A stretch of 64,000 nt of DNA from Arenicellales bacterium (GTDB lineage: Bacteria; Pseudomonadota; Gammaproteobacteria; Arenicellales; JAJDZL01): positions 2,022,288 through 2,086,287 of the forward strand of contig OZ241380.1 of assembly GCA_965200765.1 (NCBI GenBank). Direction: 5' to 3'. The notes under the pieces were generated by a model, which saw nothing but the letters and a program-made list of their open reading frames with translations, did not search any database and was not told the origin of the DNA. The position numbers and the translations under genes were made by a program. The first letter of the stretch is position 1. The number at the start of each line of letters is the position of its first letter. Below are positions 11,811 through 26,489 of the stretch, piece after piece.

Positions 11811-14291
11811 ATGTACAACAATTTCTTTACACAAGCGCTGGGCGAAAGCAAAACACCGTTTGCTTACCAAGTCGCACTCGCCGAAAAAGAATGGCCTGAT
11901 GCGTTGGTTGCACCCACCGGATTTGGTAAAACCGCTGCAGTCATTCTCGGATGGGCATGGAAGAATGCATCCAGGCAGAAAGTCCCCAGACGACTGATTT
12001 ATTGTTTACCAATGCGTACACTTGTTGACCAGACAGAGCAAAACGCAAAAATTTGGATAGAGCAGCTATGTAAAGCAAATAAGAGTTGGAGATCAAACTT
12101 GCCTGACCCCGACAAAGACATACATGTACTTATGGGCGGTTCGACTGATTCAAAATGGTATGAAAGGCCAGAACGTAAAGCAATTCTCATTGGAACCCAA
12201 GACATGCTGTTGAGCCGTGCTTTGATGCGCGGCTACGCGATGAGTCGATATCGATGGCCAGTTGACTTTGCGTTGCTTCACAACGATACACAATGGGTTT
12301 TCGACGAGGTGCAACTGATGGGGTCAGGGCTTGCCACCTCAGCTCAATTGGAGGGATTTCGCAATAAATGGGGAAACTGCCTTCCTTCTGGAAGTTTGTG
12401 GATCTCGGCAACCCTGGAACCAAGTTGGCTTCACACCTTTGATTTCCAGCGAAAACCTGAAGTCTGGCAATGCCCCGAACAGTTTTCCGAAGACAAAAAG
12501 TCAGCTCGAGTTCGTAAGTTACTCAATGCCCCCAAACCATTGGAAAAATCAGAAATTGCACCTGTAAGTGCCAATAAATCTGACTTGCTTGCTTATGTGA
12601 AGGCCATAGCAAATGAAGCAATTTCGCTCCATAGAGCGAATCAGATGACTCTGGTAATAGTCAATACAGTTGAACGGGCACAAGGAGTTTACAACGAATT
12701 GGTGAAGTGCCATAAAGGTGAAGAACATCATTTGGCACTGATTCACTCTCGATTTCGCCCCGCCGATCGTAGATTGCAAATGGAAAAATTGCCACAACCG
12801 GGACAACAGAAAAATCTGATTGTGGTCTCAACGCAGGCTATTGAGGCAGGGATTGACATGTCGGCATCTGTATTGCTGACAGAAGTGGCACCAATATCAT
12901 CTTTGGTGCAACGTTTTGGACGAGTCAATCGCTACGGGGAATTGAATTCAAAAGGTGGTGGGTTGATTCGCTGGATTGATCTTGTAGGTGCCGCCGAGGA
13001 CAATATAGGGAAAGAAAAACTGTCCGCACCTTACACACTTGAAGAAGTTGAGAGAGGCGGGGAATATATTGGGTCCAAAAATGATGCGTGTCCGTCGCAA
13101 CTTCATCAACCATTATCAACCGATCATTCACATCAATCGGTGATTCGCTCCAAAGACATGCTCGACTTATTTGACACCGATCCGGATTTAACCGGCTTCG
13201 ATGTCGATGTCTCCCCGTTCATTCGTGAAAGTATGGACACTGACATTAGAGTGTTCTGGCGCGATCTGGATTCCAAAGACAAACAAGAAAACCCGGAACC
13301 ACTTCCAACCAGAGAGGAGTTGTGTACGATACCGATCGGACGAGCAAAATCTTGGCTGAACAATGTAAAAAGAAAAGACAAGGACTCTGTATTTCAATTG
13401 AATCCAAGAGCAGGGTCAGCAACCGATACATCGCCTTGGACCCGACTAACAGAAGAACCGTGGCCAGGTATGGTCCTGATGATCAAAAGTTCAGTCGGTG
13501 GATATTCCTCTACAACAGGATTTGATCCGCAACAAAATAAATCAGTCGAATCAATTGAAATCAGTGCAAAAATAAATTCAGCAGTTGATGAACTTTACCA
13601 TTCTGATTCGGATTCTAGAAAGTCTGTGTTCGTCAGCCTTGAAGATCATTTGCAACATGTTGCAAATGAGGCAGAACTTCTGTGCGACGAACTCGAAATT
13701 GTTAATGGTTTTCGCAATCAGATCATTCAGGCATCAGCTTGGCATGATCTGGGCAAGGCACACAAAGAATTTCAATCGCGAATGAAATCAACAAACGAAG
13801 CAGAACATCCGCGCCCCGATAAAATTCTTGCCAAAGCACTCGCATACGCTCCCGATAAAAACAGTAGCCAAAAATACTTCAGACACGAACTTGCATCTGC
13901 ACTGGCCTACTTGTCTCACCACAATTGGACTCGAGAGGCAGATCTCATTGCTTATTTGATAGCGGCGCATCACGGCAAAGTACGTATGAACATTCAGTCA
14001 CTGCCGTCTGAACGATCAACCCAGAGTAGAATCGCTCGCGGTGTGATTGAAGGCGATGAACTGCCTGCATTTGATCTGCCATCAGGGGAATCTTGGAAAC
14101 GGGACAAACTTACTCTGACAATCATGGAGTTGGGAGAACATCCTGAAACTGGCGCAAGTTGGACTGAGCGTACTCAAAAACTACTTGGTGACTATGGGCC
14201 CTTTCAACTCGCGTGGCTCGAAGCGTTAGTACGAATATCTGACTGGCGAGCATCAAAAAAGGAAGAGACTGGAGAATATGAAACAAAATAG
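11811..14291 (+). CDS. cas3: Type I-G (I-U) CRISPR helicase-nuclease Cas3 with C-terminal HD domain
   Basis: APTGFGKT, YCLPMRTL, DEVQ, SATL, HSRF, STQAIEAG, QRFGRVNR; C-terminal WHDLGK and AAHHG. Confidence 0.95.
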   Translation: MYNNFFTQALGESKTPFAYQVALAEKEWPDALVAPTGFGKTAAVILGWAWKNASRQKVPRRLIYCLPMRTLVDQTEQNAKIWIEQLCKANKSWRSNLPDPDKDIHVLMGGSTDSKWYERPERKAILIGTQDMLLSRALMRGYAMSRYRWPVDFALLHNDTQWVFDEVQLMGSGLATSAQLEGFRNKWGNCLPSGSLWISATLEPSWLHTFDFQRKPEVWQCPEQFSEDKKSARVRKLLNAPKPLEKSEIAPVSANKSDLLAYVKAIANEAISLHRANQMTLVIVNTVERAQGVYNELVKCHKGEEHHLALIHSRFRPADRRLQMEKLPQPGQQKNLIVVSTQAIEAGIDMSASVLLTEVAPISSLVQRFGRVNRYGELNSKGGGLIRWIDLVGAAEDNIGKEKLSAPYTLEEVERGGEYIGSKNDACPSQLHQPLSTDHSHQSVIRSKDMLDLFDTDPDLTGFDVDVSPFIRESMDTDIRVFWRDLDSKDKQENPEPLPTREELCTIPIGRAKSWLNNVKRKDKDSVFQLNPRAGSATDTSPWTRLTEEPWPGMVLMIKSSVGGYSSTTGFDPQQNKSVESIEISAKINSAVDELYHSDSDSRKSVFVSLEDHLQHVANEAELLCDELEIVNGFRNQIIQASAWHDLGKAHKEFQSRMKSTNEAEHPRPDKILAKALAYAPDKNSSQKYFRHELASALAYLSHHNWTREADLIAYLIAAHHGKVRMNIQSLPSERSTQSRIARGVIEGDELPAFDLPSGESWKRDKLTLTIMELGEHPETGASWTERTQKLLGDYGPFQLAWLEALVRISDWRASKKEETGEYETK

Positions 14292-16560
14292 TATCCGCAC
14301 GGGTTGTTCATCCAAACCCCTCTTAAGCTATTTGAAAGCCTTGGGTATCTTGCGCCTTGTTTCAAATCCAGAAAACAATGTTAACGAGGTTGCGGCTGAT
14401 AGTCACATCCGAGGTTGGTGGGTTAACCAGCAATTTCATATTAATACTAGTCTCAATAGCGAAGAATTAGTTGAATTTTTTCTCTACAACTATTCTCCAA
14501 GTGCGGTAACTACCCCGTGGAACGGAGGGAGTGGTTTCTACAAAAAAGACAATAAAGAAGCAGTCAGTTCACTCCTGGCTCCATCAATTTCCCCTCGCTT
14601 CAGAACTCTGGCAACTGCTATTGAACAGGCAAATGCTGTGGTAAAGCGACTAGGTTTAGAAGAAGCGCCCAAAAATGGAGGCAAACGTGCGCTCATTGCA
14701 GAGCTTCGCAATACTTTTCCTGATTTCGTACTCGAATGGCTAGACGCTTCACTTGTACTTTCAGGAGACACCCTAAAATTTCCTCAAATTCTCGGAACAG
14801 GAGGCAATGATGGGCGATTGGATTTTACGATTAATTTTCATCAAAGACTCTTGTCAAATGAAAATTCAAATAAATTAAAGGGGCTATTTGATGTTACTAC
14901 CGGCTTGCCGACGAGCGAGGCGAATCGTTTGTTGCGAAACAGCCTTTTCGATGACTGCACCCACGGGTTTCACTCTGTTGCAGTCGGCCAATTTGACCCA
15001 GGTGCGGTCGGTGGTCCCAATGCTATTAGTGAAAGTTTTGATGCGGCTCCCAAGGTTAACCCATGGGACTATGTGTTATCTATTGAAGGAGCAATTATGT
15101 TTGCAGGTGCAGCGACTCGTCGTCATCAAGCTTCAAAAATCTCAGGGGCTAGTTTTCCATTTACTGTACGAATGACTGGTGCTGGTAGTGGCAATGTATC
15201 AAGTTCAGATGAAATTAATGCGCGTGCAGAATTTTGGGCACCGCTTTGGAACCAACCATCTAGTTATAGTGAACTTCGAGGATTGCTTAAAGAGGGTCGT
15301 GCCGTTCTGCAGGAAAAAATTGCTAGTGACGGACTGGATTTCGCTCGCGCCGTGGCAAGTCTTGGAATTAATCGTGGAATTGAGAGTTTTCAAAGATATG
15401 GCTTTGTGATGCTATCAGGGAAAGCTTACTTGGCAACTCCGATCGGTGTTCGAAAAGTTTCATCACCTAGTGCAAATTCAGCAAGTTTAATCGACGACCT
15501 TGATACTGGAGATTGGTTAAATCGTGTGAGTAAACTTGCCAAGGGTGAAAACTCTTCATCTCGCGGAGCGGTGTCCTTTCAGCGTTTGGAAAATGCACTT
15601 TTTGCAATGTCTGAAAAAACCAATTTCTCCCCGCAACCTGTGCAACTTGCGCTTGAAGCGTTAGGTGAGTTAGTAGAATGGCTACAGTATAACAAAGAGG
15701 TTGTTGAAAATAAACAGATGCCGCCGCCGCCTCCACGCTTGTCCAGAGCTTGGCAAAGAATTTGTGACGACAACACACCTGAATTTCGAATTGCAAGTGC
15801 ACTCGCAAGCTTGGGCTGGCAAACACCCAAATCCCGGGAAGCGTCCACTGAAGGTGAACTTCCATCAACAAAGCGTTCAATTCCCATGGCTGCACATGTT
15901 GCACCAGTAGAAATAGGGTCAATTTTCAGGAGATATCGTAGTTGGGATACACAATCTCGATGCTTTCTTAACGTATGGCGTGGAAGTGACCTGGAGTCAA
16001 TTTTAATCAGTGTATTAAATCGCAGACTCGTCGAACAGTCTATAGACAAATCTGAAGTGAAACAGCTGTATGGCTTATCCAAAGTACGGTTATCTGATAT
16101 TGAAGCATTTTTCTCACCAACCTTTGATGATGCACGATGTTTACGTTTACTTGCAGGGCTCGTTTGGACTGAACCAGCAAAGATTTTCAATAAACAAAAA
16201 TTGGATTCTCACAGTAAAGTTGTACCATTTTCTTACGCAGTATTGAAATTGCTGTTCTCTCCAACCGATACTATTCAATATTGCAAGCAAGCAAATCTGC
16301 TACCACCAGATTGCGAAATTCCGATACCAGCAAAGATTATCCCTCGTTTAAGGAGTGGATATATTGATGAGACCATTGAAACAGCACTTCAAAGACTTCG
16401 TGCATCTAATGTACCTACACCATTTCACTCATCAAGAGTTAAACATATAGGTGTCACCGGAAGACGCTTGGCAGCTTCGCTACTAATTCCACTGAATAAC
16501 TTTGAGTCAAAAATATTGCTTCAAAGGGTTTGTGATGTGGAAGAGATACAGAATATTTAG
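14278..16560 (+). CDS. csx17: Type I-G large subunit Cas8g (Csx17)
   Basis: LLSYLKALG, TPWNGGSGFY, LGTGGNDGRLDF, NPWDYVLSIEGA; directly after cas3. Confidence 0.9.
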   Translation: MKQNSIRTGCSSKPLLSYLKALGILRLVSNPENNVNEVAADSHIRGWWVNQQFHINTSLNSEELVEFFLYNYSPSAVTTPWNGGSGFYKKDNKEAVSSLLAPSISPRFRTLATAIEQANAVVKRLGLEEAPKNGGKRALIAELRNTFPDFVLEWLDASLVLSGDTLKFPQILGTGGNDGRLDFTINFHQRLLSNENSNKLKGLFDVTTGLPTSEANRLLRNSLFDDCTHGFHSVAVGQFDPGAVGGPNAISESFDAAPKVNPWDYVLSIEGAIMFAGAATRRHQASKISGASFPFTVRMTGAGSGNVSSSDEINARAEFWAPLWNQPSSYSELRGLLKEGRAVLQEKIASDGLDFARAVASLGINRGIESFQRYGFVMLSGKAYLATPIGVRKVSSPSANSASLIDDLDTGDWLNRVSKLAKGENSSSRGAVSFQRLENALFAMSEKTNFSPQPVQLALEALGELVEWLQYNKEVVENKQMPPPPPRLSRAWQRICDDNTPEFRIASALASLGWQTPKSREASTEGELPSTKRSIPMAAHVAPVEIGSIFRRYRSWDTQSRCFLNVWRGSDLESILISVLNRRLVEQSIDKSEVKQLYGLSKVRLSDIEAFFSPTFDDARCLRLLAGLVWTEPAKIFNKQKLDSHSKVVPFSYAVLKLLFSPTDTIQYCKQANLLPPDCEIPIPAKIIPRLRSGYIDETIETALQRLRASNVPTPFHSSRVKHIGVTGRRLAASLLIPLNNFESKILLQRVCDVEEIQNI

Positions 16561-16589
16561 TTTAATTGTTTCCATTATCCATGGAATAA

Positions 16590-17564
<975 letters not shown>

Positions 17565-17572
17565 ATTTTGCT

Positions 17573-19228
17573 ATGTTTGCTCTGATTTTTAACTTTCACA
17601 CCAGACATTATCACGCAACAAACTGGGGGCAGCATGTCAATGAAGCACTCGTTGCTTGGCCCCCTGAACCATGGAGAATTTTGCGAGCACTCATATCAAG
17701 TTATTGGTGCAAGGGAGGATGTCAGGACTGGTCGGTCGAACAACTTGCTGATTTCGTTGATACTCTTGCAGAGAAGCCACCTCTTTTTTCTTTGCCTAGT
17801 GATCCGATTCATACATCTACACAGCATTACATGCCAGTGGACAAAAATAGAAAATCGCTTATTTTTGATGCCTTTGCTTGTCTTCCCAAAGATGCCCAAA
17901 TTGTTGTTGCGTGGCCTGATGTAAATCTTGATAGTGACACACTAGCTTTGGCAAGTAACCTGGCAACGGGAATTGGCTATCTGGGAAGAGCTGAGAGTTG
18001 GGCGACTTGCGAAGTCTCCTGCGAGTGGGATTTGAAAAATGCCAATTGCACACCAATTGAAAATACAACTCACATAGAAGATGATGAAAATATTGTAAGT
18101 GTAATTGCTCCGAGGTCGCCAAGCAGTTATGACCTTGAAAGAAAAAAATTGATTGAAAATCTCGATTCACAATTAGTACAAGAGTATGAGATGAGTGGGA
18201 AAAAGGCACCGTCAGCTACTGTATTGAATAACAAACGAAAATCTTATTTTGGAGAAACATTACCAAAACGAATAGTCCATGCACTTTCTGTTGACACATC
18301 TTCATACAAAAAGTATGGATGGAGTTATCCCCCAGCTGCACGAAAGGTTTTATACAATCGGCCAGCTTTGTCATCAGTTCCACGAAAAAGTAATATCCCT
18401 ACTTACGACATTTCGGGAAACAAGCATAACTATTCAGTGGCCAGATTTGCACTTGTAGGGCGACCACAACCAAGAATTGAGGATGCAATCAAGATTGGAG
18501 AACTGATGAGATTAGCTACTCTTTCGAAATTTGGATGGCATGAAGACTCGCAAACGAAAAAGCGATCTCCAAAAGCACCGTCTGAGATCTCAGGACGAGG
18601 CGCTGATGGTAAACCACTACAAAATGCAAGCCATACTCATGCTTTCTGGCTTTCGGAAGATTCGGATGATGACGGTTGTATTGATCATATCTCTGTGTAT
18701 GTAGCATCTGGTCTTAGTCCACTGATTCGGATGAAATTGAACCAACTAACAAGATTATGGCTACACAAGGGGGATATTGGTAGTTCGAAGGAAGAGATTG
18801 AGGATAGTGGACACCAAGAATGGCGACTAGCACTTGAAGGATTTGGAGAACCAAAAGACTTTGAAGATATATCCAATATATTTGGCTATGATCGATTCTG
18901 GATAAGTACGACACCATTCTTGGCCACAGGGCATCTGAAAAGAAATTCTGGGTATGAAAAAGAAGTTCGTCGACATCTGAAACTCCGTTCTATTGTTCCA
19001 AATAATCAAGCAGATGAAGTATCCGTAGAGATTCTGAAGTCTATTAATGTCCACGGCACTCAGCGTAATTCATTGCATTTTCATCGCTTTAGGTCCAGAG
19101 GACGAGAAAAACAGCTTGATACTCATGGTGCGTTATTACGATTAGAGTTTCCCGTACCGATACGAGGGCCATTAGCAATCGGGTATGGTTGTCACTTCGG
19201 GCTTGGACTTTTCGTACCTGACAAGTAA
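17573..19228 (+). CDS. csb2: Type I-G Cas5/Cas6 fusion (Csb2)
   Basis: WPPEPWRILRALI, YLGRAESW; C-terminal Cas6 glycine loop GPLAIGYGCHFGLGLF. Confidence 0.92.
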   Translation: MFALIFNFHTRHYHATNWGQHVNEALVAWPPEPWRILRALISSYWCKGGCQDWSVEQLADFVDTLAEKPPLFSLPSDPIHTSTQHYMPVDKNRKSLIFDAFACLPKDAQIVVAWPDVNLDSDTLALASNLATGIGYLGRAESWATCEVSCEWDLKNANCTPIENTTHIEDDENIVSVIAPRSPSSYDLERKKLIENLDSQLVQEYEMSGKKAPSATVLNNKRKSYFGETLPKRIVHALSVDTSSYKKYGWSYPPAARKVLYNRPALSSVPRKSNIPTYDISGNKHNYSVARFALVGRPQPRIEDAIKIGELMRLATLSKFGWHEDSQTKKRSPKAPSEISGRGADGKPLQNASHTHAFWLSEDSDDDGCIDHISVYVASGLSPLIRMKLNQLTRLWLHKGDIGSSKEEIEDSGHQEWRLALEGFGEPKDFEDISNIFGYDRFWISTTPFLATGHLKRNSGYEKEVRRHLKLRSIVPNNQADEVSVEILKSINVHGTQRNSLHFHRFRSRGREKQLDTHGALLRLEFPVPIRGPLAIGYGCHFGLGLFVPDK

Positions 19229-19519: not shown

Positions 19520-21973
19520 ATGAAAAATTTCACGAAACGGTGCTTGATTGCCCATGCAATTGCTTTGCTACTGCTTACGATCAGTGCTTGCGGGGGTGGC
19601 GGAGGCACCACTGTCAATCCGCCCACTACCCCGACGAATCCGCCCACTACACCGACGAATCCGCCCACTACACCAACGGATCCGCCCACTACACCAACGG
19701 ATCCGCCCACTACACCAACGGATCCGCCCACTACACCAACGGATCCGCCCACTACACCAACGGATCCACCCACTGCTCCAACAGCAATCGATATCAGACT
19801 ACGACTACAGAATCAGCCTGAGTTGGAGAAGGTAAATGCCCGTGAGGCATATGAACGGAGATTGAATGGTCAAGGGGTTAGGATTGGCATCCAGGATGAC
19901 TTTGTTGACTTCAAAAATGCCGAGTTTTCTGGAAGAATCAGTTTTGAACAGGCAAGTTTAACCTACTGGATTCCTCCGAGAACTGTGCGGCCTTCGCCCG
20001 GTGCACGAATTATTGTTGTACCAACAGTAAATGATGTTGTATCCAGAGCGCGCCAATTCATCGAAGAAGAAGGTTATCCAAGACTAAACAACTCGGTGTT
20101 CATTAGAGTTGCCAGCGAAGCTTCGTACTATGAAATCCCAGCATTCGGCCAACGAAATATGAACAATGTGATGTTGCGCACGCATGGTACACAAGTTGCA
20201 TCAGTAGCTGCTGGCCGGACGTTGGGGGTAGCACCAGGAGCAACAATTGTGCCACTTGCAACGCCATTGGATTCCGACCTTGAAAACCAACGAGTGCTAG
20301 CAGAAGATTGGCGTGGGACTATTGAAGTGATCAAAAATCCCCCTGTTGACTTCAGCCAAAGTGATATTGCTGGATTTGACCAGCGGGTAGCGGGTCAGCT
20401 CAATGAATTTTATCGCGGCTTCCATGTAATCAACCGGTCTTATGGTCCAACCCTCGGCCCAGAGGCGAGCATAAAAGTAATTTATGACCGACAAGCAAGT
20501 GAGCGAGTCTATGAAGAATGGTTACGGACGAACCTACCCCAATACTACCGGGCATTTACGCAACAATCACTGCCAGACCGAGAAAAAACTGTGATTGTGT
20601 ATGCTGCTGGCAATGATGGACTTCCAGTACCGCATGTTGTCGCCAGCCGTGCACACAGAATCCCCAGTTTGCGCGGACTTCGACTCGCTGTGGTAGGCAT
20701 CGGGTCAAATGGCGTAATTCACTCCAGGTCAAACCGTTGCGGTACTTTACCAGATGATTGGCAAAGCACACGCGATGGTCGTCACTATTGTCTTGCCGCC
20801 CCGTACAGTGTTAATACAACCCACCCTCAAACAGGGGCACGGACTACTGTAGAAGGCACATCATTCTCAGCACCTATGGTGAGCGGCGGCATTGCATTGG
20901 TTCTCCAACAATTCCGTAACCAGTTAACTCCACGCCAAGCAGCATTGCGGGTAGTCAATACTGCAGACAATACTGGAAGATATCGCGACACCAGTATATA
21001 TGGCGCCGGTTTGCTCAACCTTGCGGCGGCAACAAGCCCAATTGGCGAACTCCGCACAGGTACTAAGACAGTACAATCATCTCTTGCTGGCACAACTCTA
21101 CGAACACCCGCGGCTTGGGGAAATGTCGCAAATCGTATGAACGGAATAGAAATTACAGCCTTCGATGACTATAACGCTCCATTTTGGTTTGAACCGAAAC
21201 ATCTCATCAAATTTTCACGAATTTCCGGGCACTCCATTGTTCCGGAAACATATCACACTACCAGTTGGAAATCCGGACCGCTGAATTATCTCAATTGGAC
21301 AAGATTGGACAACACAACACTGCTTGAGTCGAATGAGATGCAATTCGCGACCGGATTCGAAAATTATGATAATGATTCACGCACTGGTATGTTGAATACT
21401 ATGGGTATTTCGATGAAGCCATTCGGAAACAGTATTCGTACTGGTTTTATTACCGAGAACAACAGCAATCATGGTGCCAAGCCTTTCGGAGCATTTGGAA
21501 AAAATGTCAAATCCAACATGGTTTGGATTGAAGGCAGTAAAAATTGGAGATTAAAAAAGAACTCTCGCTGGTCTTTAAGTGCTTCAGGTCTCATCGCACT
21601 GGGCCAACCTCGCTACGAAGCAGGATCAATGTTTGAAGCAAGTGAGTCTATTTATTCTGCCGCAAACTTAGCTTTGGAAAACAAATCTCGCAAGCACCGC
21701 AACCAATTTACAATCAGTCAATCCCTGAGAGCAGAATCTGGGCAAGGAATACTTCGCTATCCTACGGGTCGTACGCCAGAAGGTACGCGACTATACTCAG
21801 AAGGCAGATTTCCGTTGGAACCGGAAGCAAGAGAGATCAAACTTGGTTATAGACATGACAGAACATTAGGGAATGGAATGCTTGCCTTTGAAATTTCGCA
21901 TATCCAAAATGCAGGACATACTCGAGACAATGAAGACACAGCAGTAGGTGTTGCTTTTCGGCTTGTTTGGTGA
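19520..21973 (+). CDS. Secreted S8 (subtilisin-like) serine protease with lipoprotein-type signal, Pro/Thr linker and probable C-terminal beta domain
   Basis: Lipobox ISA-C; catalytic motifs IQDD (D), THGTQVA (H), AAGNDG (N), GTSFSAPMVSG (S); terminal VAFRLVW. Confidence 0.9.
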   Translation: MKNFTKRCLIAHAIALLLLTISACGGGGGTTVNPPTTPTNPPTTPTNPPTTPTDPPTTPTDPPTTPTDPPTTPTDPPTTPTDPPTAPTAIDIRLRLQNQPELEKVNAREAYERRLNGQGVRIGIQDDFVDFKNAEFSGRISFEQASLTYWIPPRTVRPSPGARIIVVPTVNDVVSRARQFIEEEGYPRLNNSVFIRVASEASYYEIPAFGQRNMNNVMLRTHGTQVASVAAGRTLGVAPGATIVPLATPLDSDLENQRVLAEDWRGTIEVIKNPPVDFSQSDIAGFDQRVAGQLNEFYRGFHVINRSYGPTLGPEASIKVIYDRQASERVYEEWLRTNLPQYYRAFTQQSLPDREKTVIVYAAGNDGLPVPHVVASRAHRIPSLRGLRLAVVGIGSNGVIHSRSNRCGTLPDDWQSTRDGRHYCLAAPYSVNTTHPQTGARTTVEGTSFSAPMVSGGIALVLQQFRNQLTPRQAALRVVNTADNTGRYRDTSIYGAGLLNLAAATSPIGELRTGTKTVQSSLAGTTLRTPAAWGNVANRMNGIEITAFDDYNAPFWFEPKHLIKFSRISGHSIVPETYHTTSWKSGPLNYLNWTRLDNTTLLESNEMQFATGFENYDNDSRTGMLNTMGISMKPFGNSIRTGFITENNSNHGAKPFGAFGKNVKSNMVWIEGSKNWRLKKNSRWSLSASGLIALGQPRYEAGSMFEASESIYSAANLALENKSRKHRNQFTISQSLRAESGQGILRYPTGRTPEGTRLYSEGRFPLEPEAREIKLGYRHDRTLGNGMLAFEISHIQNAGHTRDNEDTAVGVAFRLVW
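19616..19783 (+). repeat. In-frame 21-bp VNTR, 8 units, encoding (N/D)PPTTPT
   Basis: RATCCGCCCACTACACCRACG units at 19616, 19637, ... 19763. Confidence 0.97.
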
Positions 21974-22048: not shown

Positions 22049-24248
22049 GGTTCAATGAGGCCGCCGCTGATTAGCGGCGGAAATCCAGCTCGGCAATTGA
22101 CGGACCCGAAACAATCGACTCACTTCAATGAGGCCGCCGCTAATTAGCAGCGGAAATCCCCAGTTTTGCTATCTACTGGCGAGCGAATACCGCTGCTTCA
22201 ATGAGGCCGCCGCTAATTAGCAGCGGAAATTTTTTAGCATCTGCAATTCTTGCCACCGGGCTTTTAAGCTTCAATGAGGCCGCCGCTAATTAGCAGCGGA
22301 AATCCCGCATGGAATCGCGCGGGGGGCGCAACGGCGGCGCTTCAATGAGGCCGCCGCTAATTAGCAGCGGAAATGACTACGTGCAGGTCAGTCGGACCGG
22401 CGACGGCTACGCTTCAATGAGGCCGCCGCTAATTAGCAGCGGAAATATTAATCGCAAGAATGTTGCGGCACTGCGCATAAGAACAGCTTCAATGAGGCCG
22501 CCGCTAATTAGCAGCGGAAATGACGCGGCCAATGACGACGGCAATCTCGTATTCAGCGTGCTTCAATGAGGCCGCCGCTAATTAGCAGCGGAAATTTGCT
22601 TGTATGGCTTTCTGCAGTTAATTTAATTGCATCGCTTCAATGAGGCCGCCGCTAATTAGCAGCGGAAATCCTTATGCTGACTGAATACAAGGCTACCGTT
22701 TTCGAGGCTTCAATGAGGCCGCCGCTAATTAGCAGCGGAAATCCTTTGTGGGTAGAAGATGATTGGGCGGATGATTTAGCTTCAATGAGGCCGCCGCTAA
22801 TTAGCAGCGGAAATCTTTTTTCTTGAACCAGTCCCAATAAGTAACAACAGTTAGCTTCAATGAGGCCGCCGCTAATTAGCAGCGGAAATTTCTGCTATAC
22901 TGGATTCTGTCGGTGGCGGCCTCATTGCTTCAATGAGGCCGCCGCTAATTAGCAGCGGAAATTTCTGCTATACTGGATTCTGTCGGTGGCGGCCTCATTG
23001 CTTCAATGAGGCCGCCGCTAATTAGCAGCGGAAATGTAGCGTTGTCCAGTTCAGTCAATTGTCATCCTCCGCGCTTCAATGAGGCCGCCGCTAATTAGCA
23101 GCGGAAATTTTGATTGCCCCTGATTTGCCGATAGCACTGCGTCTTGCTTCAATGAGGCCGCCGCTAATTAGCAGCGGAAATCAAGCCGTCGTTTTCGTCG
23201 ATGCTCATCGCGGCTTTGCTTCAATGAGGCCGCCGCTAATTAGCAGCGGAAATCTGGCGGCTCTGGCGGAGGCGGTGGACTTAGTGCATCGGCTTCAATG
23301 AGGCCGCCGCTAATTAGCAGCGGAAATTTTTTCTACCTTCCGAGTAAATCGCCTAAATATTTCTTGCTTCAATGAGGCCGCCGCTAATTAATGTCGTCAG
23401 CAGCGGAAATGTCGTCATGCTTGCCTTCCCTTTCGCCGCTGGCCCGGCTTCAATGAGGCCGCCGCTAATTAGCAGCGGAAATGTCGCTGGCCCGGCTTCA
23501 ATGAGGCCGCCGCTAATTCGCAGCGGAAATTCAATCGACTTCGGCTGGCTATCGCTTCAATGAGGCCGCCGCTAATTAGCAGCGGAAATATGTTTTCAGA
23601 AGGTTTGGATGCCATTGTATTTTTTAGCTTCAATGAGGCCGCCGCTAATTAGCAGCGGAAATTATGATCGTTTCGTGCAAGATAACCATGGATACAATGC
23701 TTCAATGAGGCCGCCGCTAATTAGCAGCGGAAATCCAAGCTGCTGCTTGAAACCAATCCTCACATGTTGCAGCTTCAATGAGGCCGCCGCTAATTAGCAG
23801 CGGAAATTCGGCGTATCCTCGCGCGGCGTAGGTTCGGTGACCGAGCAGCTTCAATGAGGCCGCCGCTAATTAGCAGCGGAAATCTGGCATATTCAGATGT
23901 AGGAAGAGATAGAACTCTAGCTTCAATGAGGCCGCCGCTAATTAGCAGCGGAAATTTCCATTGCAATCGATAGCCAAGCGTTTGAAACCTATGCTTCAAT
24001 GAGGCCGCCGCTAATTAGCAGCGGAAATCTGACTGACCTAATGCAGCACTACCTATTTCAAGTTGCTTCAATGAGGCCGCCGCTAATTAGCAGCGGAAAT
24101 AGAATTATGATCAACGCTCAAGAACCGAAAAAAATTGCGCTTCAATGAGGCCGCCGCTAATTAGCAGCGGAAATTCGTTGCAAATGATGAAACGGAAAAA
24201 ATAACAGTCAGCGCTTCAATGAGGCCGCCGCTAATTAGCAGCGGAAAT
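22049..24248 (-). CRISPR. CRISPR array, 31 repeats and 30 spacers; 36-bp repeat ATTTCCGCTGCTAATTAGCGGCGGCCTCATTGAAGC in the transcribed orientation
   Basis: Counted manually. Spacers are 35-40 nt except one of 12 and one of 23. The degenerate repeat at 22049 marks the trailer; the ATTGAAGC 3' end and the leader next to cas2 indicate minus-strand transcription. Confidence 0.98.
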
Positions 24249-24463: not shown

Positions 24464-24757
24464 TCAGACAATAACCGCTTCCCTAGTCGGCTTATTATAC
24501 TCCTTTCCGATGCTTTCAACAAATAATTCCACCTTATCCGCTAACCCCAAATCGAAAATCAATACATGATCCTCCTTTGGATCAATCAACTCTGTGAGAC
24601 GACCGACCATCTGTGCATGTCGACGAGCCGTCAATCGGCATTGAAATACCGACAATTGCACCCATTCGCCATAGCCTTTCACTGAGTTGAAAACCTTCCG
24701 CCAACGCTTCGGGTCGGAAATATCGTATGCAACAATGTACAGTCGTTCTTTAGCCAT
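24464..24757 (-). CDS. cas2: CRISPR-associated endoribonuclease Cas2
   Basis: YIVAYDISDPKRWRKV, WVQLSVFQC. Confidence 0.97.
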   Translation of the reverse strand: MAKERLYIVAYDISDPKRWRKVFNSVKGYGEWVQLSVFQCRLTARRHAQMVGRLTELIDPKEDHVLIFDLGLADKVELFVESIGKEYNKPTREAVIV

Positions 24758-24764
24758 AATTCAG

Positions 24765-26489
24765 TCAACGTGGTAGATAATGAGGATACACTGGAATTTC
24801 GTTCTGCAAGTATCGTGCCAACAATCGAACTTGCACTTCAATGAGCCGGCGCATTGAAACTCGATATCCGAACACCGGGTGCGTAGTCTCTTGTTCAAGA
24901 CGTCGCTCAAAAATTCCAATAAATGATTTTCTGCCACCAGGCTGTAATGAACACGCCGGTCCGTTGAATATAAAGTCTTTGACTTTGATCTCACCGTTGT
25001 TGATCGCTTGAATTACACAAGAATCTGCAACGATTGGACGAAACGGTTCCATCAGATCAAGAGCAAGTGCAGGACGTCCATGCCTCGTACGGTGATAGAG
25101 GCCCATACAAGGGTCCAATCCTGTCACTGAAATTGATACTGAAAATAGTCTGGTGAGCATAGAGTATGCAAGGGATAGCATTGCATTCACAGGGTCAGTC
25201 GGAGGTCTGCGATTACGAGTTTGAAACGAGAAGTTGGCAACTCTGTCGTCTTCGCTGGCTACTAGCAAATTCGGAAAACTGGCGAAGTAAACTGCCGCCG
25301 CCTCTCCTTCTATGCCAAGCAGTATTTGCTCTGAATTTGCCTGCTTTGCTTTTTTCGCCAACGATTTCAAACGAACCAAAGCATCCCTTTTGGTTTTCGA
25401 ATCAACATCACCGCGCCAATTTCGACGTAGCATGGTTCGTGAATTTTGCACCTTCGCTGACACAAGTTCTCTCGAAAATGACAATCTGCGTTTCTCATCG
25501 AATGCAACTTTGAATTGTGCTTCGCGTACAGCAATATTTCCGTTTGCTACTCCTGCTGAATGGCCCAAGTACCAACCACCGGTCGTGAACCAGGCCAAAG
25601 GTATTTCTTGCCTCATGAGTGCGTGTATTGTCGGAGTAGTTATTGAAACCGGTCCAAACAGAGCAACCTGAGAAACCGACAAAATAGGAACCTCTACCTT
25701 GTCGTCTTCGGACTCTACAACCAAGCGTTCACCATCCTTGCGTACTCTGGAACCCGGAGTTTGAACATAGAGAGGCAATGCTGGATCGTCGGAAGGATTC
25801 AAGGGTCGCGGTGGATAGTCTTTGAGAAACATATTCGTTTCGTCCGGCAAACAAATTCCTGCAAGGGAGCATTTGGGACACTTGGGACTATTTTCAAGTG
25901 GTGGGGGACGTTGATTTGACATCGCCATCGCCCGCAAACTTGAAATGGCTGTCAATGTATTGGTACGCAATTCTTCATCCAGCTTGACGGTAACTTTTTC
26001 ACGAGATGCAATATACCAAAGTGCTCCGCTTTCTACCGTAAATCCATTGTCTTCCAGGATCATTGCTTGCGTACACACTTGAACTCTTTCTGGTTCATAT
26101 GCTCCCATGGCTACATGAGGGCGCTTCCCCTTTTTGTAGTCCACAGGCATAACCACCCCTTTCTTGATTTCGATGACATCCATTTTGGCAATAACCCCCA
26201 GCTTTTCTGACGACAGAGTTACAGCCCGAGCCTTGGACATAACATTTTCCAGTTCTTCAGACGAAGGCAACTTGCCTTTACCCCGATCTACTTGAGAATG
26301 AGCAATAGAGCCTTTGACAGTATCGACACTGTCGGCCCACTCTCCTTCAACCCACTCCAGATAGGCCAATCGAGGACAATAAACCCACTCATTTACGATT
26401 CTCGCAGGAATTAAGGGTGAATCTGCTTCAATAGGCGGAGGGGGTAGTGGAAGCGATCGTTGGTGTTTGGGGTTGGCAGAATTATCCAT
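24765..26489 (-). CDS. cas4/cas1: Cas4-Cas1 fusion
   Basis: Cas4: YCPR, VDYKKG, CPKCSLAGIC. Cas1: LGIEGEAAAVYF, DPVNAMLSLAY, LALDLMEPFRP. Confidence 0.95.
   Translation of the reverse strand: MDNSANPKHQRSLPLPPPPIEADSPLIPARIVNEWVYCPRLAYLEWVEGEWADSVDTVKGSIAHSQVDRGKGKLPSSEELENVMSKARAVTLSSEKLGVIAKMDVIEIKKGVVMPVDYKKGKRPHVAMGAYEPERVQVCTQAMILEDNGFTVESGALWYIASREKVTVKLDEELRTNTLTAISSLRAMAMSNQRPPPLENSPKCPKCSLAGICLPDETNMFLKDYPPRPLNPSDDPALPLYVQTPGSRVRKDGERLVVESEDDKVEVPILSVSQVALFGPVSITTPTIHALMRQEIPLAWFTTGGWYLGHSAGVANGNIAVREAQFKVAFDEKRRLSFSRELVSAKVQNSRTMLRRNWRGDVDSKTKRDALVRLKSLAKKAKQANSEQILLGIEGEAAAVYFASFPNLLVASEDDRVANFSFQTRNRRPPTDPVNAMLSLAYSMLTRLFSVSISVTGLDPCMGLYHRTRHGRPALALDLMEPFRPIVADSCVIQAINNGEIKVKDFIFNGPACSLQPGGRKSFIGIFERRLEQETTHPVFGYRVSMRRLIEVQVRLLARYLQNEIPVYPHYLPR

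What the first reader, a model, noticed from the sequence alone, without database searches (positions are those of the whole stretch)
22914..23017. Repeat-spacer junction folds into a perfect 13-bp hairpin that would hide the crRNA 5' handle
Seen: GGCGGCCTCATTG-CTT-CAATGAGGCCGCC occurs twice (about 22915-22943 and 22988-23016). Inference: in the pre-crRNA this GC-rich stem competes with the native 8-bp repeat stem (CCGCTGCT/AGCGGCGG). It also sequesters the ATTGAAGC handle and the seed, so Csb2 processing at two repeats may be blocked. This could act as a safety lock on a self-matching guide. The alternative is that the spacer arose by fold-back template switching.
Basis: partly seen in the sequence, partly recalled or inferred. 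Interest (0 to 1): 0.6.

Follow-up and report, generated by a model that had tools for sequence, protein, structure and literature searches.

The report
CRISPR spacer that folds onto its repeat
Two identical neighbouring spacers in a type I-G CRISPR array begin with a 12-base inverted copy of the repeat's tail, so the transcript should fold over the cutting site; this looks like an accident of spacer uptake that disables the guides, not an evolved safety lock.

Summary
The window holds an intact type I-G CRISPR-Cas locus. Its array (22049-24248) has 31 repeats and is transcribed from the minus strand. Spacers 18 and 19 from the leader are identical. Each starts with 12 nt that are the reverse complement of repeat nt 20-31, giving a 13-bp, 3-nt-loop hairpin with the upstream repeat.

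Folding favours this hairpin (-25.9 against -13.3 kcal/mol for the native stem). Even if the native stem survives, an 8-bp helix still covers the Csb2 cleavage site.

The inverted 12-mer lies exactly where a spacer taken from the opposite strand of a repeat, next to its TTC (type I-G PAM TTN), would begin. It equals the 7 nt between the repeat stem and GAA, which is the type I-G prespacer overhang length, plus 5 nt of stem. The hairpin and the "self-match" are therefore one fact seen twice.

My best reading is a spacer that entered by the normal PAM-guided route from DNA carrying repeat-tail sequence, and was later duplicated by slippage. It probably yields poorly processed guides. I found no support for a selected lock: no conservation could be shown, and a 12-nt match should not need one.

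Two further cases in metagenomes and one on a plasmid may be chance. The origin remains unresolved. This scan also noted the same stretch separately as a possible regulatory guide.

The parts
11811..19228 (+). Type I-G interference genes: cas3g (11811-14291), cas8g/csx17 (14278-16560), cas7g/csb1 (16590-17564), csb2 (17573-19228)
   Evidence: NCBIfam matches far above the curated cut-offs and full length on the profiles
24464..26489 (-). Adaptation genes: cas4g/cas1g fusion (24765-26489) and cas2 (24464-24757)
   Evidence: NF049935 at 752.7 bits and TIGR01573
24249..24463 (-). Leader, with one sigma-70-like site at 24380-24353 on the minus strand
   Evidence: Lies between cas2 and the first repeat. 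Promoter-like site. L027 shows the same order: cas4/1, cas2, leader, array
22049..24248 (-). CRISPR array: 31 repeats of 36 nt and 30 spacers, with a degenerate last repeat at 22049-22084
   Evidence: Repeat = 8-bp stem + CCTC + 8-nt handle ATTGAAGC, the type I-G layout described in PMC9638904
23000..23035 (-). Repeat 18, whose 3' part (nt 20-36) pairs with spacer 18
22963..22999 (-). Spacer 18 (37 nt). Its first 12 nt (22988-22999) are the inverted copy of repeat nt 20-31
22927..22962 (-). Repeat 19, whose 3' part pairs with spacer 19
22890..22926 (-). Spacer 19, identical to spacer 18. Inverted 12-mer at 22915-22926
22988..23016 (.). 29-bp palindrome (13-bp arms, 3-nt centre) across the repeat 18 / spacer 18 junction
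   Evidence: as single-stranded DNA, MFE -17.7 / -18.1 kcal/mol for the 48-nt segments holding it
22915..22943 (.). Second copy of the palindrome, at the repeat 19 / spacer 19 junction
23036..23072 (-). Spacer 17. Its 3' end depends on cleavage and hairpin formation in repeat 18, so it is expected to suffer collaterally
   Evidence: Inference and from Csb2 staying bound to the 3' hairpin (PMC9638904)

Best explanation
This is an ordinary-length (37-nt) spacer whose PAM-proximal 12 nt copy the opposite strand of a type I-G repeat tail, in exact PAM register. It most likely entered through the normal Cas4/1-Cas2 route from DNA that carried repeat-tail sequence. My preferred variant is that the array's own repeat supplied the PAM end. 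The repeat's transcript-sense strand reads stem, 7 nt (CCTCATT), GAA, which mimics the PAM end of a type I-G prespacer (duplex, 7-nt 3' overhang, GAA). The tail would be joined to a foreign fragment through 5 nt of microhomology (GGCGG), cut by Cas4 just 5' of GAA, and integrated. The less preferred variant is a protospacer on a rearranged array or on a mobile element that carries a repeat-like unit. The repeat-spacer unit was later duplicated in tandem by slippage or unequal recombination between repeats. In the pre-crRNA the spacer start must pair with the upstream repeat. Either the 13-bp hairpin replaces the native stem, or the native stem persists next to an 8-bp helix. Both conformers put the Csb2 scissile bond (C28|A29) inside a duplex. 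Guides 18 and 19, and the 3' end of guide 17, are therefore probably matured poorly. The hairpin is a by-product, not a selected device. Shown: the sequence anatomy, the PAM register, the folding energies and the locus type. Inferred: the route of origin, the processing defect and the lack of function.
For: The locus is an intact type I-G system. In the reverse complement of the repeat, the 12-mer directly follows TTC. The type I-G PAM is TTN and TTC licenses interference (PMC6547450). Type I-G prespacers have a 22-bp duplex and 7-nt overhangs. Cas4 cuts just 5' of GAA, and spacer-side integration needs 6-8 nt (PMC10504553). All 22 sampled type I-G repeat variants have stem, 7 nt, then GAA. 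The spacer has the modal length of 37 nt. Chance is about 1.2e-7 per spacer, and other spacers have at most 7 nt complementary to the repeat. Energies: native stem -13.3, junction hairpin -25.9, native plus 8-bp helix -23.0, MFE -30.7 kcal/mol. The helix forms once 4-7 nt of spacer are transcribed. Native-stem probability is 0.03 and cleavage-site accessibility 0.001, against 0.82 or more and 0.26-0.97 in 21 of the other 27 units folded. Csb2 cuts 4 nt 3' of the stem and binds the hairpin, not the handle (PMC9638904). The same array carries other slippage and rearrangement scars in units 10-13.
Against: No source was found for the remaining 25 nt, in the genome, phages, plasmids or IMG/VR, so the origin is not demonstrated. 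I found no report of a repeat acting as PAM-end donor. That step needs single-stranded repeat DNA and a joining reaction that I only infer. The two metagenomic cases (10 nt each) came from a search that demanded 9 nt. The 14-nt tail I scanned for is shared by most gammaproteobacterial type I-G arrays, so they may be chance. No further case appeared among 549 unique spacers. No RNA data exist, and Csb2 bound during transcription might still cleave. Spacers 14, 24 and 27 also disturb the native stem in silico, so such models over-predict defects.
Confidence: 0.6

Rival explanations
1. Replicative fold-back or quasi-palindrome template switch after a normal acquisition. While copying the junction, the nascent strand folded back on the repeat tail (closing pair G32:C36, loop AAG). 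It copied nt 31 back to nt 20 until the repeat stem stopped it, then returned to its template.
For: The palindrome has the 3-nt centre typical of snap-back priming. The copy ends inside the repeat stem, at the G:T wobble. The array shows other templated scars, namely a 9-nt copied insertion in repeat 13 and an internal deletion in spacer 11.
Against: Priming would rest on one base pair, or four if the old spacer began AAT. The switch back needs homology that a replaced 9-12 nt stretch would not have. The spacer kept exactly the modal length. This model gives no reason for the exact PAM register or for the 7-nt geometry.
Confidence: 0.12
2. Coincidence. This is a normal spacer from foreign DNA whose protospacer happens to start with AATGAGGCCGCC after a TTC.
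For: TTC plus the 12-mer occurs in 111 IMG/VR stretches, most with no repeat-like context, so such protospacers exist. The scan looked at very many spacers. The 10-nt metagenome cases are compatible with chance.
Against: The probability is about 1.2e-7 per spacer and about 3e-6 for this array. I estimate it stays below a few per cent after allowing for roughly 1e5 spacers in the whole scan. None of the 83 viral matches read (in the 80 listed stretches) continues like the spacer; the best is 13 of 25.
Confidence: 0.08
3. Selected function. Either the hairpin is a lock that keeps a self-matching guide from maturing, or the guide is a CreA/CreR-like regulator. Its 12-nt PAM-flanked seed would seat Cascade on every repeat of its own array without cleavage, with the hairpin tuning how much guide is made.
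For: A 12-nt seed plus TTC is present at all 31 repeats. From my own knowledge, 10-12 nt is the range used by natural regulatory crRNA-like RNAs. A plasmid type I-G remnant without adaptation genes keeps a single spacer that also starts with an interrupted inverted tail. A conserved inhibitory leader-repeat hairpin is known in type VI systems (PMC13187072).
Against: The hairpin follows automatically from the self-match, so it is not independent evidence. The spacer sits mid-array like any old spacer (position 18-19 of 30). It was not found in 60 relatives or in arrays sharing the repeat tail. A lock that also harms guide 17 is costly. Lock and regulator are mutually contradictory. Such spacers are very rare, with none found unselected among 549.
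Confidence: 0.07

Closest known systems
Type I-G (formerly I-U) CRISPR-Cas arrays and Csb2 processing (Thioalkalivibrio sulfidiphilus, PMC9638904; Geobacter sulfurreducens, PMC6547450; Methanosarcina barkeri, PMC10504553)
   Same: Same gene set: cas3g, cas8g, cas7g, csb2, cas4/1 fusion and cas2. Same repeat layout: 36 nt with a stem, 4 nt, then an 8-nt ATTGAAGC handle. Spacers of 36-38 nt. A TTC lies next to the inverted 12-mer.
   Different: Two spacers carry an inverted copy of the repeat tail at their PAM end. I found no description of that for this or any other subtype.
Leader-repeat inhibitory hairpin of type VI CRISPR-Cas13 arrays (PMC13187072)
   Same: An RNA hairpin sequesters part of a repeat, and there it was shown to block binding and processing by the Cas nuclease. 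This is the same physical principle as predicted here.
   Different: [quoted passage not shown] Here the partner is a spacer, the feature is private to one array, and nothing has been tested.
Spacer-dependent misfolding of CRISPR transcripts (spacer effects on crRNA abundance in type I-B, PMC3479195; GC-rich spacers impairing neighbouring guides in Cas12a arrays, PMC8478413)
   Same: Individual spacers change the processing of their own and neighbouring guides through RNA structure.
   Different: Those effects come from fortuitous partial pairing. Here the pairing is a perfect 13 bp, created by a copy of the repeat itself.
Virus-borne mini-arrays and solitary repeat-like units (known from the literature as viral mini-CRISPR arrays and RNA anti-CRISPRs; cited from my own knowledge)
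   Same: IMG/VR contigs carry units with the same type I-G tail GGCGGCCTCATTGAAG next to varied stems. A spacer taken beside the TTC of such a unit would start with the same 12-mer.
   Different: A spacer from such a unit should contain the unit's stem-loop. The 25-nt tails of the window, L027 and L028 spacers hold no such hairpin (and inspection).
CreA/CreR-type crRNA-like regulators of type I systems (cited from my own knowledge)
   Same: A short PAM-flanked seed match that would allow Cascade binding without Cas3 cleavage.
   Different: Those are stand-alone, conserved genes with degenerate repeats that target a promoter. Here an ordinary array member matches the repeats themselves.

Membership tests
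Type I-G CRISPR-Cas locus | Signature genes cas3g, cas8g/csx17, csb1/cas7g, csb2 and the cas4g/cas1g fusion | tested here: met
   All match the subtype-specific NCBIfam models above cut-off
Type I-G CRISPR-Cas locus | 36-nt repeat with a stem, a 4-nt linker and an 8-nt ATTGAA(A/G)C handle, with the array downstream of cas2 and a leader | tested here: met
   Same order in L027. Layout as in PMC9638904
Evolved inhibitory hairpin (as in the type VI leader-repeat hairpin) | Conserved across related arrays | tested here: not met
   No such spacer in 60 relatives, in 5 genomes sharing the repeat tail, or in 13 further type I-G arrays.
Evolved inhibitory hairpin (as in the type VI leader-repeat hairpin) | Blocks nuclease binding or cleavage | not testable with these tools
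   Only thermodynamic prediction is available
CreA/CreR-like regulatory guide | PAM-flanked partial match of about 10-12 nt to a DNA target | tested here: met
   TTC plus 12 nt at all 31 repeats
CreA/CreR-like regulatory guide | Stand-alone conserved gene that targets a promoter | tested here: not met
   It is an internal member of a 30-spacer array, the target is the repeat, and no conservation was found
Spacer derived from a repeat-like unit on a mobile element | The spacer continues as the reverse complement of that unit's stem-loop | tested here: not met
   No stem-loop and no significant likeness to any sampled repeat beyond nt 12. No match to viral units
Quasi-palindrome template-switch mutation | A pre-existing imperfect palindrome converted to a perfect one, with an ancestral allele visible in relatives | not testable with these tools
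   No second strain could be read

The most novel reading that the evidence does not exclude
Type I-G repeats carry a built-in mimic of a prespacer's PAM end (stem, 7 nt, GAA). Cas4/1-Cas2 would occasionally use it, creating a so far undescribed class of chimeric spacers that begin with the inverted repeat tail and silence themselves by folding onto the upstream repeat. A stronger version is that some such guides are kept, because their 10-12-nt PAM-flanked seed seats Cascade on the array's own repeats as a self-regulator.
Probability: 0.2. Interest if true: 0.65.

Novelty: new variant of a known kind. Interest (0 to 1): 0.35.

Why it matters
If the origin is as proposed, it exposes a failure mode of Cas4-dependent adaptation, in which the array's own repeat is mistaken for the PAM end of a prespacer. 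It also gives a simple sequence signature, an inverted 7-nt tail plus a few stem bases at the spacer start, that can be counted in any adaptation data set. It offers a natural test case for how much RNA structure Csb2 tolerates at its unusual cleavage site, 4 nt outside the stem. It also shows that a single spacer can disable its neighbours. If it is chance or a one-off replication error, it is a curiosity with no wider consequence.

Tried and rejected
1. Self-targeting. The 25-nt remainder of the spacer and all other spacers have no match elsewhere in the 3.29-Mb genome.

2. Protospacer search. Searches of phages, plasmids and IMG/VR with the odd spacer, the whole array, spacers 1-3, and the L027 and L028 spacer tails found nothing. 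The PAM of this particular system therefore could not be derived directly.

3. Spacer as the reverse complement of a whole variant repeat. Tail alignments are not significant after multiple testing.

4. A continuum of shorter inverted runs. None was found: in-register runs are 0-3 nt in 549 unique spacers, apart from the two cases selected by the search.

5. Recurrence as proof. I first read the two metagenome hits as significant. I withdrew that reading after finding that the scanned 14-mer is the common tail of gammaproteobacterial type I-G repeats.

6. Same-species arrays.

7. Intrinsic terminator role. There is no U-tract after the hairpin.

8. Sequencing or assembly artefact. This is unlikely for a 12-nt inversion inside a clean 73-bp unit, but it cannot be tested here.

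Full report
**Locus and orientation**

[quoted passage not shown] On the + strand lie cas3g, cas8g/csx17, cas7g/csb1 and csb2 (11811-19228). On the minus strand lie the cas4g/cas1g fusion and cas2 (24464-26489). All match the subtype-specific models far above cut-off.

Between them lies an array of 31 repeats and 30 spacers at 22049-24248. Four observations show that the crRNA is the minus strand:
- cas4/1, cas2, a 215-nt leader and then the array follow each other on that strand. An independent metagenomic type I-G locus, L027, has the same order.
- The only promoter-like site lies in the leader on the minus strand.
- The degenerate repeats are at the far end.
- In this sense the repeat reads 8-bp stem, CCTC, ATTGAAGC. 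This is the layout for which Csb2 was shown to cut 4 nt 3' of the stem and leave an 8-nt handle (PMC9638904).

**The observation**

Spacers 18 and 19 counted from the leader are identical 37-mers. Together with their repeats they form a perfect 73-bp tandem duplication.

Their first 12 nt, AATGAGGCCGCC, are the reverse complement of repeat nt 20-31. With the natural G32:C36 pair this gives 13 bp around the loop AAG.

No other spacer of the array has more than 7 nt complementary to the repeat. Markov models trained on type I-G spacers give about 1.2e-7 for this 12-mer at a spacer start. The 12-mer is absent from the rest of the genome.

**What the RNA should do**

- Energies: the native stem is worth -13.3 kcal/mol and the junction hairpin -25.9. 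The native stem together with a non-competing 8-bp helix (CCUCAUUG/CAAUGAGG) is worth -23.0. The MFE of repeat plus spacer is -30.7.
- Ensemble: for units 18 and 19 the native stem has probability 0.03 and the cleavage site is unpaired with probability 0.001. In 21 of the other 27 units folded these values are 0.82 or more and 0.26-0.97.
- Timing: folding of growing transcripts shows the junction helix forming as soon as 4-7 nt of spacer are out.

Even if Csb2 holds the native stem, the scissile bond C28|A29 lies in a helix stacked on that stem.

Csb2 stays bound to the 3' hairpin of each guide. Guide 17 needs repeat 18 to be intact and cleaved, so it should suffer as well. All of this is prediction. 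Spacers 14, 24 and 27 also disturb the stem in silico, which shows that such models over-predict defects.

**Hairpin and self-match are one fact**

In the reverse complement of the repeat, the 12-mer is directly preceded by TTC. The type I-G PAM is TTN, and TTC licenses interference (PMC6547450). The spacer therefore looks exactly like one taken from the opposite strand of a repeat.

Any such spacer must be complementary to the upstream repeat in the transcript. The hairpin needs no selection to explain it, and it is not independent evidence for a lock.

From what is known of other type I systems (my own knowledge), a 12-nt seed match should not recruit Cas3, so there is nothing to lock.

**Geometry**

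Type I-G prespacers have a 22-bp duplex and 7-nt 3' overhangs. Cas4 cuts just 5' of GAA on the PAM strand, and spacer-side integration needs overhangs of 6-8 nt (PMC10504553).

The repeat's transcript-sense strand reads stem (ending at G24), CCTCATT (7 nt), then GAA. All 22 type I-G repeat variants I sampled share this spacing. The inverted 12-mer is these 7 nt plus 5 nt of stem base.

This suggests that the PAM end of a prespacer was supplied by, or copied from, a repeat through a few bases of microhomology, then trimmed by Cas4 and integrated. That would explain both the exact junction and the normal spacer length. This step is inference. I found no paper describing it.

**Alternatives for the origin**

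(a) A protospacer on DNA that already carried a partial repeat. IMG/VR contigs do hold mini-arrays and solitary repeat-like units with the same tail and varied stems. Examples are one 47-kb contig with at least five units (L091 and L098) and the two-repeat mini-array in L102. A host attacked by such an element would gain such spacers at a useful rate. However, the 25-nt remainder of the spacer contains no stem-loop and resembles no sampled repeat. No source was found anywhere.

(b) A replicative fold-back. This fits the 3-nt centre and the stop inside the stem. It needs priming on one to four base pairs and a return without homology, and it does not explain the PAM register or the preserved length.

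(c) Chance. This is small for this array but not nil across a scan of this size.

**Recurrence**

A metagenome scan for the repeat tail followed by 9 inverted bases found two independent type I-G arrays, L027 and L028. They have different stems, and in each one spacer starts with 10 inverted bases (7 plus 3 stem bases).

I cannot call this significant. Sampling 400 genomes of the class showed that 24 carry Cas4g/1g. That tally includes three unpublished genomes, G104, G206 and G360, which I did not fetch and on which no claim rests. Twelve of 13 fetched arrays end in the very 14-mer I scanned for. The number of spacers scanned is therefore large and unknown, and I estimate the expected chance hits at roughly 0.04 to 4.

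Among 549 unique spacers the in-register run is 0-3 nt, apart from those two.

A plasmid of Methylomagnum ishizawai carries a type I-G remnant without adaptation genes. Its two-repeat mini-array has a single spacer that starts AAT-CCA-GAGGCCGC, which is the inverted tail with a 3-nt bulge. This is suggestive but not decisive.

**Duplication**

Identical neighbouring units are most simply explained by slippage or unequal crossing-over between repeats. The 29-bp palindromes fold well as single-stranded DNA (about -18 kcal/mol) and may have promoted it. The same array carries other such scars in units 10-13.

**Limits**

The identical Cas2 is encoded on 21 contigs in public assemblies. The most direct test, the state of this spacer in sister strains, therefore could not be run.

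**Verdict**

The anatomy is real and the predicted misfolding is strong. The safety-lock reading is not supported. The most likely story is an aberrant, self-silencing spacer made in PAM register from repeat-tail DNA and then duplicated. The exact route of origin remains open.

Noticed in passing
window 23483-23530: Spacer 11 is only 12 nt. It equals spacer 12 (23411-23446) with a 24-nt internal deletion, so units 11-12 are a second tandem unit duplication, later damaged. Repeat 11 also has a T-to-G change in its loop.
   Followed up: partly
window 23366-23410: Repeat 13 is 45 nt. A 9-nt insertion (GACGACATT in crRNA sense) at the stem-loop boundary copies the end of spacer 12 plus the first 3 nt of the repeat. 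It looks like a templated insertion of unknown mechanism.
   Followed up: no
window 23531-23553: Spacer 10 is only 23 nt, which is truncated compared with the usual 35-40 nt.
   Followed up: no
window 19520-21973: An 817-aa subtilase-like serine protease gene sits between csb2 and the trailer end of the array (weak mycosin and autotransporter-peptidase matches). Its relation to the CRISPR locus is unknown.
   Followed up: no
L091 392-406; L098 690-704, 1267-1281, 1338-1352 and about 1409 (IMGVR_UViG_3300031911_000008); L102 1629-1714: Viral contigs carry solitary repeat-like units and mini-arrays. They share the type I-G repeat tail GGCGGCCTCATTGAAG, or CCGGCCTCATTGAAGC in the unit near L098 1409, but each has a different stem. 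One 47-kb contig has at least five. They are candidates for viral mini-arrays or RNA anti-CRISPR decoys aimed at type I-G.
   Followed up: partly
L051 1464-1597 (NZ_AP019784.1, about 207.06-207.19 kb): Methylomagnum ishizawai plasmid pRS11DPr1 has a type I-G remnant (cas7u, csb2, cas3'') with no annotated cas1, cas2 or cas4 in the 20 kb examined. Its two-repeat mini-array has one spacer that starts with the inverted repeat tail interrupted by CCA. It is annotated inside a hypothetical protein gene.
   Followed up: partly
L023, spacer 12 of the array (Pseudomonadales MAG OY761612.1): A 'spacer' that reads like the array's own repeat in direct orientation with a 16-nt insert in the loop (starts CCGCCG, ends CGCGGGCGGCGGCCT). 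This is another sign that repeat-derived DNA can end up as a spacer.
   Followed up: no
L028 10654-10727 and 11812-11885: Two spacers 16 units apart differ at only three positions, as if the same protospacer was sampled twice from diverged targets.
   Followed up: no
L033-L047 and L015-L028: Almost all sampled gammaproteobacterial type I-G repeats share the last 14 nt (GGCCTCATTGAAGC), while the stem sequence varies freely with compensating changes. All keep exactly 7 nt between the stem and GAA.
   Followed up: partly
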